A stretch of 64,000 nucleotides of DNA from Escherichia coli (GCF_003334355.1 NZ_QOWP01000011.1); one strand, 5' to 3'; positions 47,801 to 53,800 are shown, counted from the first letter of the stretch. Made by a program: the numbers.

Positions 47801-50800
47801 ACGATGCTCAGGGTCGGGTCCGCTTCTACTTCGAAGAAGACTTCAGTTTCAACGCCTGCTGCTTTCAGTACGGAAGTGATCTGATCAGCATAACCATTGT
47901 TGAACAGGAAGCGGTCAGTCACGATGAGCGCACGTTTGTGGCCATCAGTAATCACTTCATCCAGCGCGATTGGCAGGGAGCCACGGCGGAAGTAGATAGA
48001 TTTCGGAAGTTTGTGCCACAACATGTTTTCAGCTCGCTTAGCAACGGTTTTCTTGTTGATCAGGTGTTTCGGACCAACGTTTTCAGAGATGGAGTTACCA
48101 CCCCAAGAACCACAACCCAGAGTCAGGGAAGGTGCGAGTTTGAAGTTATACAGGTCACCGATACCACCCTGAGACGCTGGGGTGTTAATCAGGATACGCG
48201 CCGTTTTCATTTTCTGACCGAAGTAAGAAACGCGAGCCGGTTGGTTATCCTGGTCAGTGTACAGGCAAGAGGTATGACCGATACCGCCCATAGCAACCAG
48301 TTTCTCTGCTTTTTCTACCGCGTCTTCGAAATCTTTAGCGCGGTACATTGCCAGAGTCGGGGACAGTTTTTCATGTGCGAACGGTTCGCTTTCATCAACA
48401 ACGGTCACTTCACCGATCAGAATCTTGGTGTTTTCTGGTACAGAGAAGCCTGCCAGTTCAGCAATTTTATAGGCTGGCTGACCAACGATAGCCGCGTTCA
48501 GCGCACCGTTTTTCAGGATAACATCCTGAACAGCTTTCAGCTCTTTACCCTGCAACAGATAGCCGCCGTGGGTTGCAAAACGTTCACGTACAGCATCATA
48601 AACAGAGTCAACAACAACAACAGACTGTTCAGAAGCACAGATTACGCCGTTGTCGAAGGTTTTGGACATCAGTACAGATGCAACTGCACGTTTGATATCA
48701 GCAGTTTCATCGATAACAACTGGAGTGTTGCCCGCGCCTACACCGATAGCTGGTTTACCGGAGCTGTATGCGGCTTTAACCATGCCCGGACCACCAGTCG
48801 CGAGGATCAGGTTGATGTCTGGGTGGTGCATCAGTGCGTTAGACAGTTCAACAGAAGGTTGATCGATCCAGCCGATCAGATCTTTCGGAGCACCGGCAGC
48901 GATAGCAGCCTGCAGAACGATATCAGCCGCTTTGTTGGTGGCATCTTTTGCACGCGGGTGCGGGGAGAAGATAATGGCGTTACGGGTCTTCAGACTGATC
49001 AGCGATTTGAAGATAGCAGTTGAAGTCGGGTTAGTGGTCGGAACGATACCGCAAATAATACCGATTGGTTCAGCGATAGTGATGGTACCAAAAGTGTCGT
49101 CTTCAGACAGAACACCACAGGTTTTTTCATCTTTATAGGCGTTGTAGATATATTCAGAAGCAAAGTGGTTTTTGATCACTTTATCTTCGACGATACCCAT
49201 GCCGGATTCGGCAACGGCCATTTTCGCGAGTGGGATTCGAGCATCTGCAGCAGCCAGAGCGGCGGCGCGGAAGATTTTGTCTACTTGCTCTTGAGTGAAA
49301 CTGGCATATTCACGCTGGGCTTTTTTTACACGCTCTACGAGTGCGTTAAGTTCAGCGACATTAGTAACAGCCATAATGCTCTCCTGATAATGTTAAACTT
49401 TTTTAGTAAATCATCTGCTCGAATACGAGAGTATAGTCAGTGCGGTGATGATTTGCTTAACCTATGAAAATCAAAAGCTTACTCGCGCTCACACTCACTG
49501 TGATTTACTAAAAGAGTTTAAACATTAGAGTTATTATCTCTAATGCGTCACTTCCAGGTGGCGTAAGCAAGATTACTCACTTCTGGGTACTGATTACGTG
49601 ATCCAAATCAAATTTTTGCAAAGCTGACACCTTTCAGCATCGCTTTTCGCCATTATAGCTAACAGTTAATAAATTGTAGTATGATTTGGTGGCTACATTA
49701 GCATGTTTTGCACAACTAGATAACAATAACGAATGATAGCAATTTTAAGTAGTTAGGAGGTGAAAAATGCTGTCAAAAGGCGTATTGTCAGCGCGTCTTT
49801 TCAACCTTATTTATGGCTAACATTATCCGGCTTTTGCTTCGGAGCTAACCGTGATTCAGACCTTTTTTGATTTTCCCGTTTACTTCAAATTTTTCATCGG
49901 GTTATTTGCGCTGGTCAACCCGGTAGGGATTATTCCCGTCTTTATCAGCATGACCAGTTATCAGACAGCGGCAGCGCGAAACAAAACTAACCTTACAGCC
50001 AACCTGTCTGTGGCCATTATCTTGTGGATCTCGCTTTTTCTCGGCGACACGATTCTGCAACTTTTTGGTATATCAATTGATTCGTTCCGTATCGCCGGGG
50101 GCATCCTGGTGGTGACGATAGCGATGTCGATGATCAGCGGCAAGCTTGGCGAGGATAAACAGAACAAGCAAGAAAAATCAGAAACCGCGGTACGTGAAAG
50201 CATTGGTGTGGTGCCATTGGCGTTGCCGTTGATGGCGGGGCCAGGGGCGATCAGTTCTACCATCGTCTGGGGTACGCGTTATCACAGCATTAGCTATCTG
50301 TTTGGTTTCTTTGTGGCTATTGCATTGTTCGCTTTATGTTGCTGGGGATTGTTCCGCATGGCACCGTGGCTGGTACGGGTTTTACGCCAGACCGGCATCA
50401 ACGTGATTACGCGTATTATGGGGCTATTGCTGATGGCATTGGGGATTGAATTTATCGTTACTGGTATTAAGGGGATTTTCCCCGGCCTGCTTAATTAATT
50501 CCTTTCAAATGAAACGGAGCTGCCATGCTCCGTTTACTTCGTCATTATTTTTACTTTGTTCCCGCGCAGTTATCAAAAGCAAAAGGAATAGGTAAAAATA
50601 TTCTTCTCAAATTACAGTTAGTTATAAGGATTTCCTTAACTGCTTCTCCTCACCATCATGTTATTTTCGCCACATCATAATCCTGGGCTTGCTGAAGAAT
50701 AATTGAAATGATATTAGTAATTCCACTGCCTTTGGTAGAGGAAAGTGCTAAATAATAATCAATTGTTAAATTATTGTGCATTTCACTACTGGAACTGTAA

Positions 50801-53800
50801 TCAGAAAAGATAGACATGCTTAGCCAATCTCTATTTGATTGAATTGAAAGATGTTTGTTAAGGCATGGATGCAAGCTATAGATTCTGATACGGTCAATAA
50901 AAGAGAATTGCTTAACAATTTTGCAAAATGTATTGGCGAGTAAGAACCGCATTTGGTACTTTCCGGGCAACCGCCAGACGATTCTTTATTGGTAATGAGA
51001 ATAATTAACAATTAAAGAGCGTCGCGAAAGAATAATGTGTCTCGACAGGGGAGACACAGTACGAATCGACATAAGGTGATCGTCTGAATCACCAGAATAA
51101 ATAAAGTCGGTGATAGTAATACGTAACGATAAAGTAACCTGACAGCAGAAAGTCTCCGAGCCTGTGCAGGGTCCCAATCCGGGATTACACATGCTGGTTA
51201 ATACCAGTAATTATAATGAGGGAGTCCAAAAAACAATGACCAACATCACCAAGAGAAGTTTAGTAGCAGCTGGCGTTCTGGCTGCGCTAATGGCAGGGAA
51301 TGTCGCGCTGGCAGCTGATGTACCCGCAGGCGTCACACTGGCGGAAAAACAAACACTGGTACGTAACAATGGTTCAGAAGTTCAGTCATTAGATCCGCAC
51401 AAAATTGAAGGTGTTCCGGAGTCTAATATCAGCCGAGACCTGTTTGAAGGCTTACTGGTCAGCGATCTTGACGGTCATCCAGCACCTGGCGTCGCTGAAT
51501 CCTGGGATAATAAAGACGCGAAAGTCTGGACCTTCCATTTGCGTAAAGATGCGAAATGGTCTGATGGCACGCCAGTCACAGCACAAGACTTTGTGTATAG
51601 CTGGCAACGTTCTGTTGATCCGAACACTGCTTCTCCGTATGCCAGTTATCTGCAATATGGGCATATCGCCGGTATTGATGAAATTCTTGAAGGGAAAAAA
51701 CCGATTACCGATCTCGGCGTGAAAGCTATTGATGATCACACATTAGAAGTCACCTTAAGTGAACCCGTTCCGTACTTCTATAAATTACTTGTTCACCCAT
51801 CAACTTCACCGGTGCCAAAAGCCGCTATCGAGAAATTCGGCGAAAAATGGACCCAGCCTGGTAATATCGTCACCAACGGTGCCTATACCTTAAAAGATTG
51901 GGTCGTAAACGAACGAATCGTTCTTGAACGCAGCCCGACCTACTGGAACAACGCGAAAACCGTTATTAACCAGGTAACCTATTTGCCTATTGCTTCTGAA
52001 GTTACCGATGTCAACCGCTACCGTAGTGGTGAAATCGACATGACTTATAACAACATGCCGATCGAATTGTTCCAGAAGCTGAAAAAAGAGATCCCGGACG
52101 AAGTTCACGTTGATCCATACCTGTGCACTTACTATTACGAAATTAACAACCAGAAACCGCCATTCAACGATGTGCGTGTGCGTACCGCACTGAAACTAGG
52201 TATGGACCGCGATATCATTGTTAATAAAGTGAAAGCGCAGGGCGACATGCCCGCCTATGGTTACACTCCACCGTATACTGATGGCGCAAAATTGACTCAG
52301 CCGGAATGGTTTGGCTGGAGCCAGGAAAAACGTAACGAAGAAGCGAAAAAACTGCTGGCTGAAGCGGGTTATACCGCAGACAAACCGTTGACCATCAACC
52401 TGTTGTATAACACCTCCGATCTGCATAAAAAGCTGGCGATTGCTGCCTCTTCATTGTGGAAGAAAAACATTGGTGTAAACGTCAAACTGGTTAACCAGGA
52501 GTGGAAAACGTTCCTCGACACCCGTCACCAGGGTACTTTTGATGTGGCCCGTGCAGGCTGGTGTGCTGACTACAACGAACCAACTTCCTTCCTGAACACC
52601 ATGCTTTCGAACAGCTCGATGAATACCGCGCATTATAAGAGCCCGGCCTTTGACAGCATTATGGCGGAAACGCTGAAAGTGACTGACGAGGCGCAGCGCA
52701 CAGCTCTGTACACTAAAGCAGAACAACAGCTGGATAAGGATTCGGCCATTGTTCCTGTTTATTACTACGTGAATGCGCGTCTGGTGAAACCGTGGGTTGG
52801 TGGCTATACCGGCAAAGATCCGCTGGATAATACCTATACCCGGAATATGTACATTGTGAAGCACTAATGGCAATACGTGGGGCAGGAGTGTCCTGCTCCA
52901 CGGTGTCTGATTTTTATCGCATTACAGAAGGCACAGGCCAGAAGGTAGGGCAATGTTAAAATTTATTCTACGTCGCTGTCTGGAAGCGATTCCGACGCTA
53001 TTTATTCTTATTACTATTTCGTTCTTTATGATGCGCCTCGCGCCGGGAAGCCCTTTTACCGGCGAACGTACTTTACCGCCAGAAGTGATGGCCAATATCG
53101 AAGCGAAATATCATCTTAATGATCCGATCATGACACAGTATTTCAGCTACCTGAAACAACTGGCGCACGGTGATTTCGGTCCATCGTTTAAATATAAAGA
53201 TTATTCGGTCAATGACTTGGTTGCATCCAGTTTTCCCGTTTCTGCCAAACTGGGAGCCGCAGCATTTTTCCTTGCGGTAATACTGGGTGTTAGTGCTGGC
53301 GTTATTGCCGCATTAAAACAAAACACCAAATGGGACTATACCGTGATGGGGCTGGCAATGACCGGGGTTGTTATCCCCAGTTTTGTGGTTGCACCATTAT
53401 TAGTCATGATATTTGCGATCATTTTGCATTGGCTGCCGGGCGGTGGCTGGAATGGTGGGGCGCTTAAATTCATGATATTGCCGATGGTGGCGTTGTCACT
53501 CGCTTATATCGCCAGTATTGCGCGTATTACCCGTGGCTCTATGATTGAAGTATTACACTCCAATTTTATTCGTACTGCCCGGGCGAAAGGGTTACCTATG
53601 CGGCGGATCATTTTACGTCACGCATTAAAACCTGCTCTGTTACCCGTGCTCTCTTATATGGGCCCCGCATTTGTCGGCATTATTACCGGTTCTATGGTTA
53701 TCGAAACCATTTATGGTTTGCCGGGGATTGGACAACTGTTCGTTAATGGCGCATTGAACCGTGACTATTCCTTAGTGTTAAGCCTGACCATCCTGGTTGG

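What the first reader, a model, noticed from the sequence alone, without database searches (positions are those of the whole stretch)
50540..51235. Long AT-rich oppA leader region
About 700 bp separate ychE from oppA. The region is AT-rich with only short or low-complexity ORFs (e.g. 50656..50970 on the minus strand). This is consistent with a long regulated leader, since oppA is known to be under sRNA (GcvB) and other post-transcriptional control; nothing novel is evident, but it is the largest non-coding block besides the adhE leader.
Basis: partly seen in the sequence, partly recalled or inferred. Interest (0 to 1): 0.2.

Follow-up and report, generated by a model that had tools for sequence, protein, structure and literature searches.

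The report
Known long regulated oppA leader
The 737-bp AT-rich gap between ychE and oppA in E. coli is the already well-studied control region of the oligopeptide transporter operon (two promoters plus a 511-nt untranslated leader bound by small RNAs and proteins), and it holds no hidden gene, so the finding is real but ordinary.

Summary
ychE ends at 50498 and the oppA ATG is at 51236, so the spacer is 737 bp, with GC 0.37 against 0.50 for the window. Using primers and coordinates from Carrier et al. 2023 and Park et al. 2013, I placed the published elements on the window:
- ychE terminator, 50512-50535
- promoter P1, TSS 50725
- two inverted ArcA boxes, 50763-50783 and 50909-50929
- promoter P2, TSS 50970
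- RNase E site, 51065
- MicF pairing site, 51096-51117
- AU-rich translational enhancer
- Hfq site, 51208-51216
- distant SD, 51218-51224
- GcvB site across the AUG

The ychE-oppA arrangement, a spacer of 713-878 bp and low GC recur in 72 non-Escherichia Enterobacteriaceae loci. Conservation is confined to the blocks carrying these elements. Three leader hairpins or helices show compensatory changes.

The 104-aa minus-strand ORF, which PGAP calls a 'hypothetical protein', is intact in 0 of 72 non-Escherichia loci and 0 of 3 other Escherichia. No ORF of 8 aa or more is conserved.

Minor extras: the spacer between the ArcA-box blocks has no conserved sequence but a fixed length, and K-12 stocks carry independent IS insertions here. 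Verdict: already known, low interest.

The parts
50512..50535 (+). ychE intrinsic-terminator hairpin (AAACGGAGC-loop-GCUCCGUUU) followed by a U-rich tail
   Evidence: Folds at -14.9 kcal/mol, z = -4.06 against shuffles. It lies 14 nt after the ychE stop codon.
50536..50658 (.). Poorly conserved AT-rich stretch upstream of P1, with no element assigned
   Evidence: Identity to E. coli in 72 non-Escherichia loci is only 0.26-0.44. No conserved ORF.
50688..50725 (+). oppA promoter P1: -35 TTGCTG (50688-50693), extended -10 TGaTATTAG (50709-50717), TSS at 50725
   Evidence: The TSS follows from the published +341 and +399 primers and the MicF site at +372..+393. The hexamers were read from the sequence. 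The block 50699-50718 is 92% identical across genera.
50736..50783 (+). Near-invariant block A (+12..+59 of the P1 transcript), containing ArcA box 'oppA1' TTGTTAAATTATTGTGCATTT at 50763-50783
   Evidence: Alignment A1 shows many invariant columns. The ArcA ChIP peak and box sequence come from the Park et al. 2013 supplement, coordinates 1298733-1298753; coordinate offset 1,247,970.
50784..50898 (.). Spacer with no sequence conservation but a conserved length
   Evidence: Identity 0.22-0.50. The variable segment is 126-129 nt in 68 of 76 taxa, 115-118 nt in Escherichia plus one other, and 138 nt in one.
50899..50970 (+). Near-invariant block B: ArcA box 'oppA2' (50909-50929, minus orientation), then promoter P2 with -35 TTGGCG (50933-50938), -10 TACTTT (50957-50962) and TSS at 50970 (+246)
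   Evidence: ArcA box at 1298879-1298899. P2 at +246. In A1 both hexamers are invariant while the spacer between them varies, the usual signature of a promoter.
50656..50970 (-). Spurious ORF (104 aa from TTG, 98 aa from ATG) that PGAP annotates as a 'hypothetical protein' in many E. coli genomes
   Evidence: Annotated as WP_001211520 (98 aa) or WP_000051910 (53 aa). Stops or frameshifts occur in the three other Escherichia and in every other genus. Intact in 0/72 and 0/3. No NCBIfam match. It overlaps P1, both ArcA boxes and P2 on the opposite strand.
51036..51058 (+). Conserved leader stem-loop (UGUGUCUC-loop-GAGACACA), 7 nt upstream of the RNase E site
   Evidence: Folds at -12.2 kcal/mol, z = -3.72. 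Compensatory pair changes across 76 taxa, e.g. CG 30 / UA 15 and GC 29 / AU 10 / CG 10.
51065..51111 (+). RNase E cleavage site (+341 = 51065); invariant helix AUCGAC (51065-51070) with GUCGGU (51106-51111), enclosing hairpin 51075-51093
   Evidence: Cleavage site from PMC9988348 and the T7-oppA primer. The helix is paired in 75-76 of 76 taxa but hardly varies, so it carries no covariation support.
51096..51117 (+). MicF pairing site (+372..+393), AATAAATAAAGTCGGTGATAGT
   Evidence: Core duplex with MicF nt 1-9 and 14-25, using micF from MG1655. Lead-acetate protection is published. About 90% or more conserved across genera.
51117..51142 (+). AU-rich translational-enhancer stretch downstream of the MicF site (published delta-399 deletion starts at 51123)
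   Evidence: PMC9988348 text. The EM5095 primer joins 51122 to 51143.
51138..51170 (+). Conserved leader helix, 51138-51145 paired with 51162-51170
   Evidence: RNAalifold consensus with some compensatory changes, e.g. AU 63 / GC 7 and CG 51 / UA 7.
51194..51207 (+). Conserved hairpin CUGGU-UAAU-ACCAG immediately upstream of the Hfq site
   Evidence: Paired in 69-76 of 76 taxa. The closing pair varies: CG 33 / UA 24 / UG 12. Predicted in the single-sequence fold.
51208..51224 (+). Hfq (A-R-N)n site TAATTATAA (51208-51216, +484..+492) and Shine-Dalgarno GAGGGAG (51218-51224), 11 nt from the AUG
   Evidence: Hfq footprint position from PMC9988348. Sequence. 80-99% conserved. 'Distant SD' of the polyamine modulon.
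51233..51249 (+). GcvB target, CA-rich ACAATGACCAACATCAC spanning the oppA AUG (51236-51238)
   Evidence: Pairs with the GcvB G/U-rich region, using gcvB from MG1655. Highly conserved. GcvB repression at the RBS is published.

Best explanation
The interval is the transcriptional and post-transcriptional control region of the oppABCDF oligopeptide-permease operon.

Transcription. After the ychE terminator, two sigma-70 promoters fire: P1 (TSS 50725) and P2 (TSS 50970). They give leaders of 511 and 266 nt. Transcription is tuned at the DNA level by ArcA, which has two inverted boxes in the near-invariant blocks at 50763-50783 and 50909-50929. Lrp also acts here (two ChIP peaks, repression relieved by leucine), and H-NS binds the AT-rich spacer.

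RNA level. The leader is cut by RNase E at 51065. MicF pairs at 51096-51117 and improves use of an adjacent AU-rich enhancer. Hfq binds TAATTATAA just upstream of a distant SD and blocks 30S binding. GcvB pairs across the AUG and represses translation. Polyamines stabilise a bulged stem near the SD and AUG and stimulate initiation.

Shown here: the coordinates of these elements, their deep conservation, compensatory support for three leader hairpins or helices, sRNA complementarity, and the absence of any conserved ORF. Taken from the literature: the TSSs, the cleavage site, the footprints, the ChIP peaks and the direction of each regulatory effect.
For: Published primers place +341 at 51065 and +399 at 51123, so +1 is 50725. 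This fits the MicF duplex at +372..+393 and the Hfq site at +484..+492. P1, P2, the RNase E site, MicF, Hfq and GcvB regulation are described in PMC9988348. The ArcA boxes and ChIP peaks come from the PMC3798270 supplement, and the sequences match the window exactly. Two Lrp peaks repress oppA (PMC10127797). An H-NS flag and a sigma-70 holoenzyme peak are listed for the ychE>oppA spacer (PMC3946193). The polyamine mechanism is reviewed in PMC4191411. ychE-oppA synteny, a 713-878 bp spacer and low GC occur in all 72 non-Escherichia loci. Conservation peaks coincide with the mapped elements. Covariation supports hairpins or helices 51036-58, 51138-70 and 51194-207. No conserved ORF exists on either strand.
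Against: No transcript or ribosome data could be examined here, so the TSSs, the cleavage site and the regulatory directions rest on the cited papers. Ishihama's SELEX-inferred promoter TTAACA-17-AAGAAT (51005-51033) corresponds to neither P1 nor P2 and remains unverified. The transcription factor or factors responsible for the rest of block A (50736-50762) and for 50899-50908 are not identified. Duplex energies from RNAduplex were not better than shuffled sRNA segments, because long interior loops are allowed. The sRNA sites therefore rest on the contiguous core complementarity plus published probing.
Confidence: 0.92

Rival explanations
1. The minus-strand ORF 50656-50970 (PGAP 'hypothetical protein' WP_001211520) is a real protein-coding gene, so the gap is not non-coding.
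For: It is annotated in many RefSeq E. coli genomes. The frame is open in the E. coli strains examined.
Against: The frame has 1 stop in Escherichia sp. MOD1-EC7003 and 4 in strain E69. It has stops or frameshifts in E. whittamii, E. albertii and every other genus. It is intact in 0/72 and 0/3 loci. tblastn similarity follows only the nucleotide-conserved promoter and ArcA blocks. The annotated length differs between strains, 98 versus 53 aa. No NCBIfam match. The curated MG1655 record and strain 720632 do not annotate it.
Confidence: 0.02
2. Besides acting in cis, the E. coli leader releases a stable trans-acting small RNA, like Salmonella OppX, the MicF sponge processed from the oppA 5' UTR.
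For: Salmonella OppX-L, -M and -S (410, 190 and 109 nt) derive from this leader (cited). Raghavan et al. 2011 listed a ychE-oppA sRNA in E. coli, and a tiling-array study saw a transcript there. The MicF site is almost invariant across genera. The RNase E site is flanked by conserved hairpins that could stabilise fragments.
Against: Carrier et al. 2023 could not detect any stable fragment from the E. coli oppA 5' UTR by Northern blot. They showed that MicF activates oppA translation in cis. No Rfam family matches.
Confidence: 0.2
3. Blocks A and B are conserved because they form the base of a long RNA hairpin in the P1 transcript, not because they are DNA binding sites.
For: The E. coli MFE fold pairs 50740-50780 with 50909-50964. 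77% of cells can pair, against 34-50% when the partners are slid. One pair, columns 35/253, switches UA to AU in 16 taxa.
Against: RNAalifold finds no consensus structure. Several invariant bases face freely varying partners, e.g. C29/col258 is unpaired in 44 of 76 and col25/262 in 73 of 76. Fold z-scores average only -1.1, and block A pairs with block B by 10 or more pairs in only 60% of taxa. The complementarity is explained by two inverted ArcA boxes (TGTTAA / TTAACA) that have ChIP support. Block B also contains the P2 hexamers.
Confidence: 0.1
4. The AT-rich stretch is a remnant of horizontally acquired or degraded DNA that H-NS silences and that has no function of its own.
For: GC is 0.31-0.37 in the centre of the spacer. 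H-NS is flagged in this spacer. The region attracts IS elements.
Against: The same spacer, with the same gene neighbours, length and conserved blocks, is present in every Enterobacteriaceae genus sampled. That is vertical inheritance under constraint.
Confidence: 0.02

Closest known systems
E. coli oppA P1/P2 promoters and 5' UTR (Igarashi et al. 1997; Carrier, Lalaouna and Masse 2023, PMC9988348)
   Same: This is the same locus. Published primers and site coordinates map exactly onto the window: +341 = 51065, +399 = 51123, MicF site +372..+393 = 51096-51117, Hfq site +484..+492 = 51208-51216.
   Different: Nothing differs. The window carries the uninterrupted form, without the IS5 of the MG1655 reference sequence.
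Salmonella OppX, a MicF sponge sRNA processed from the oppABCDF 5' UTR (Matera et al. 2022, as cited in PMC9988348)
   Same: Orthologous leader. The MicF-complementary sequence is almost invariant between E. coli, Salmonella and 70 other taxa.
   Different: In E. coli no stable leader fragment was detected, and MicF is reported to activate oppA translation rather than to be sponged. Fragment stability cannot be tested from sequence.
GcvB targets with C/A-rich elements at the RBS of ABC-transporter mRNAs (Sharma et al. 2007)
   Same: The CA-rich ACAATGACCAACATCAC across the AUG is complementary to the GcvB G/U-rich region. oppA is one of the ABC-transporter mRNAs repressed by GcvB.
   Different: None found.
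Polyamine modulon mRNAs with a distant Shine-Dalgarno sequence (Igarashi and Kashiwagi)
   Same: GAGGGAG ends 11 nt before the AUG. OppA is the founding example.
   Different: The bulged GC-rich 'Stem I' was not mapped or tested here.
ArcA regulon operators (direct-repeat ArcA boxes; Park et al. 2013, PMC3798270)
   Same: Two listed boxes, oppA1 and oppA2, are found verbatim in the window and lie inside the two most conserved blocks.
   Different: ArcA activates oppA about two-fold, whereas it represses most of its targets. The boxes lie downstream of P1 and upstream of P2, in inverted orientation about 146 bp apart.

Membership tests
oppA 5' UTR as defined by Carrier et al. 2023 | Sequence identity with the published +341 transcript start and the delta-399 junction | tested here: met
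   Primer EM4528 (…GGG-ATCGACATAAGGTGATCGTCTG) matches 51065 onward. EM5095 joins 51122 to 51143 (sequence).
oppA 5' UTR as defined by Carrier et al. 2023 | [quoted passage not shown] | not testable with these tools
   Positions are inferred as 50725 and 50970 from the published numbering. Plausible hexamers are present and conserved, but no transcript data were available.
MicF target / OppX-type MicF-binding leader | Complementarity to the MicF 5' seed | tested here: met
   MicF nt 1-9 and 14-25 pair with 51096-51117. The site is about 90% or more conserved across 76 taxa.
MicF target / OppX-type MicF-binding leader | Stable processed leader fragments that titrate MicF | not testable with these tools
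   Reported for Salmonella and reported absent in E. coli.
GcvB target | C/A-rich element at or near the RBS, complementary to the GcvB G/U-rich region | tested here: met
   51233-51249 pairs with GcvB nt ~66-85. CAACATCAC is the exact complement of GUGAUGUUG. The site is conserved.
Polyamine modulon (distant-SD class) | SD unusually far from the AUG | tested here: met
   GAGGGAG at 51218-51224, AUG at 51236, spacing 11 nt. The class is described.
Polyamine modulon (distant-SD class) | A-bulged GC-rich Stem I that binds spermidine | not tested
   Described in PMC4191411. Its exact nucleotides were not available, and it was not identified in my folds.
ArcA operator | ArcA box (TGTTA direct repeats 11 bp apart) under a ChIP peak | tested here: met
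   The sequences listed by Park et al. occur at 50763-50783 (+) and 50909-50929 (-). The ChIP peaks themselves are taken from the literature.
Protein-coding gene (PGAP hypothetical protein WP_001211520) | Open reading frame preserved in related species | tested here: not met
   Intact in 0 of 72 non-Escherichia and 0 of 3 other Escherichia loci. In-frame stops occur in close relatives.
Any curated Rfam RNA family | Covariance-model score at or above the gathering threshold | tested here: not met
   The best hit is MIR399 at 20.3 bits against a threshold of 57, a chance match to a long AT-rich hairpin. The C0299 fragment scores 17 bits against 40.

The most novel reading that the evidence does not exclude
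The two near-invariant blocks that carry the inverted ArcA boxes are separated by a spacer with no conserved sequence. Its length, however, is held at 126-129 nt in 68 of 76 Enterobacteriaceae, and the outliers differ by about one DNA helical turn (115-118 nt in Escherichia plus one other; 138 nt in one). This would fit an undescribed phased protein-DNA architecture, such as a loop or wrap made by ArcA-P oligomers or by an Lrp octamer or hexadecamer. Such a structure would bridge the P1-proximal and P2-proximal sites and coordinate the two promoters.
Probability: 0.25. Interest if true: 0.3.

Novelty: already known. Interest (0 to 1): 0.08.

Why it matters
It matters mainly as a clean negative. 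The largest-looking 'empty' stretch next to oppA hides no gene or new RNA. It is one of the better-dissected bacterial leaders, with five or more regulators acting on it. Two practical points follow. First, the PGAP 'hypothetical protein' annotated on the minus strand in many E. coli genomes is very probably an annotation artefact lying over promoters and ArcA operators. Second, common K-12 stocks carry different IS elements inside this control region: MG1655 reference IS5 at +24, W3110 IS2 at the P1 -10, and JM83 IS1 inside the MicF site. Results on opp regulation may therefore depend on the strain used.

Tried and rejected
- **Rfam:** a scan at a permissive E-value over 49300-51500 gave only sub-threshold chance hits.
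- **Promoter and terminator scan:** it found no more sites than shuffled sequence did (4 against 3.2 expected). It did recover Ishihama's TTAACA-17-AAGAAT and a minus-strand terminator-like hairpin, which is simply leader stem-loop 51036-58 read backwards.
- **Long-range RNA stem between blocks A and B:** RNAalifold gave no consensus. Pair counting showed high pairing potential but little covariation, with invariant bases opposite variable partners. Per-species folds were only weakly better than shuffles. I rejected this in favour of inverted ArcA boxes plus the P2 promoter.
- **Conserved ORFs:** I tested the 104-aa minus-strand ORF and every ORF of 8 aa or more on both strands. None is conserved. 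The best is a 10-aa GTG ORF at 51110-51142, intact in 21 of 72 loci.
- **NCBIfam:** no hit for the ORF product. I judged the large protein-database searches unnecessary after the frame-conservation result and did not run them.
- **RNAduplex energies:** compared with shuffled sRNA segments they were uninformative, because large interior loops are allowed. I relied on the contiguous core pairing instead.
- **Papers not held:** Raghavan 2011, Thomason 2015, Igarashi and Kashiwagi 2018 and Matera 2022. OppX boundaries, the dRNA-seq TSSs and the coordinates of the reported ychE-oppA sRNA could therefore not be checked directly.

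
Full report
**Observation.** The window is E. coli DNA with adhE on the minus strand (46699-49374), ychE on the plus strand (49851-50498) and oppA on the plus strand. The oppA ATG is at 51236. The gene-free spacer is therefore 50499-51235, or 737 bp. GC is 0.373 against 0.498 for the window, with 200-bp windows down to 0.315. The minus-strand ORF at 50656..50970 exists. One detail is wrong. In a strain with an identical spacer, this gap (737 bp) is larger than the adhE leader (392 bp to ychT). It is matched only by ychF-ycgV at 768 bp.

**Distribution.** The spacer is present in 5424 of 5426 complete E. coli genomes at 90% identity or more (all but 5 records at 95% or more). 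A scan of one genome per species with OppA returned 80 loci. In every locus that reached far enough upstream, ychE precedes oppA. The spacer is 713-878 bp with GC 0.34-0.44. The long AT-rich spacer is therefore an ancestral, constrained feature of Enterobacteriaceae. It is not acquired DNA.

**What it is.** The literature already dissects this region.
- Carrier, Lalaouna and Masse (PMC9988348) confirmed two TSSs by primer extension, P1 (+1) and P2 (+246). They also mapped an RNase E processing site at +341, MicF pairing at +372..+393 about 120 nt upstream of the AUG, and an AU-rich enhancer just downstream of it. They further placed an Hfq site at +484..+492 next to the SD and GcvB at the RBS. 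They cite the Salmonella OppX sponge, which is cut from the same leader.
- Their T7-oppA primer begins at ATCGAC, which is window 51065. Their delta-399 primer joins 51122 to 51143. Hence +1 = 50725, P2 = 50970 and AUG = +512.
- Independent checks agree. MicF (taken from MG1655) pairs through nt 1-9 and 14-25 with 51096-51117. The GcvB G/U-rich region pairs with ACAATGACCAACATCAC at 51233-51249, across the AUG. TAATTATAA at 51208-51216 is the (A-R-N)n Hfq site.
- The SD GAGGGAG (51218-51224) lies 11 nt from the AUG. This is the 'distant SD' of the polyamine modulon.
- At the DNA level, the supplement of Park et al. 2013 lists two ArcA ChIP peaks with boxes TTGTTAAATTATTGTGCATTT and ATTTTGCAAAATTGTTAAGCA. 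These are window 50763-50783 (+) and 50909-50929 (-). ArcA activates oppA about two-fold.
- Lrp gives two strong peaks that repress oppA and are lost when leucine is added.
- Ishihama's SELEX table flags H-NS in the ychE>oppA spacer and proposes TTAACA-17-AAGAAT at 51005-51033. That proposed promoter matches neither mapped TSS.

**Conservation matches the map.** Against 72 non-Escherichia loci, identity to E. coli is low (0.22-0.50) in 50499-50658 and 50779-50898. It is high in the following places:
- the P1 promoter (50699-50718, 0.92)
- block A (50739-50778, 0.81-0.84)
- block B (50899-50938, 0.89-0.93)
- the RNase E site region
- the MicF site (0.86)
- the stretch holding the Hfq site, SD and GcvB site

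In alignment A1 the P2 -35 (TTGGCG) and -10 (TACTTT) are invariant while the spacer between them varies. This is the usual signature of a promoter.

In the proximal leader, RNAalifold recovers two hairpins and a longer-range helix with compensatory changes: the hairpins 51036-51058 and 51194-51207, and the helix 51138-45/51162-70. It also recovers an invariant helix that pairs the RNase E site (51065-70) with part of the MicF site (51106-11).

**The ORF question.** PGAP annotates a minus-strand 'hypothetical protein' here in many genomes: 98 aa in K-12 derivatives and 53 aa in ATCC 25922. The curated MG1655 record and strain 720632 do not annotate it. Its frame has stops or frameshifts in the three other Escherichia and in all other genera, and similarity follows only the nucleotide-conserved blocks. 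It is intact in 0/72 and 0/3 loci. No ORF of 8 aa or more on either strand is intact in more than 21 of 72 loci. NCBIfam finds nothing.

**A lead that dissolved.** Blocks A and B are mutually complementary, and the E. coli MFE fold pairs them. I rejected a long-range RNA stem for four reasons:
- RNAalifold gives no consensus.
- Covariation is slight, and invariant bases face variable partners.
- Per-species folds are only weakly better than shuffles.
- The complementarity is explained by the two inverted ArcA boxes.

One observation remains. The sequence-free spacer between the blocks has a fixed length: 126-129 nt in 68 of 76 taxa, with outliers about 10 nt shorter or longer. This hints at helical phasing between the two protein-binding blocks. 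It is an inference from few independent length changes.

**Verdict.** The finding is real and was correctly interpreted. It is already known in detail, and I found no evidence of a new element.

Noticed in passing
window 50748-50751 (MG1655), 51104-51112 (JM83), ~50717 (W3110): Three K-12 lineages carry independent IS insertions in this control region. The MG1655 reference has IS5 at the CTAA target, 24 nt downstream of P1. JM83 has IS1 with a 9-bp duplication inside the MicF pairing site. W3110 has IS2 at the P1 -10 region (PMC2072959). About 83 of 5425 E. coli records have the spacer split or partly missing.
   Followed up: partly
window 50784-50898: The spacer between the two ArcA-box blocks has essentially no sequence conservation but a tightly conserved length (126-129 nt in 68 of 76 taxa). 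The Escherichia versions are about 10 nt shorter and one taxon is about 10 nt longer, which suggests helical phasing.
   Followed up: partly
window 49767-49820 (+): The 17-aa small protein YchT (MLSKGVLSARLFNLIYG) is annotated just upstream of ychE, inside the adhE-ychE divergent spacer.
   Followed up: no
window 50994-51006: A short motif GATGAGAAT(T/A)ATT in the P2-derived leader is about 90% conserved across genera. It is not assigned to any published element that I could find.
   Followed up: no
window 51110-51142 (+): A 10-codon GTG-initiated mini-ORF overlaps the 3' end of the MicF site and the AU-rich 'translational enhancer', where the authors report a small Ribo-seq peak. It is intact in only 21 of 72 other genera and has no obvious SD.
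   Followed up: partly
window 50752-50780 (-): A promoter-like match on the minus strand (TGCACA-17-TATTAT) lies inside conserved block A, overlapping ArcA box 1 and pointing towards ychE. I could not check whether it drives an antisense transcript.
   Followed up: no
window ~7381-8148 (inferred from strain 720632 coordinates): The ychF-ycgV gap (768 bp) is the largest annotated gene-free block in the window, slightly larger than the oppA spacer. I did not examine it.
   Followed up: no
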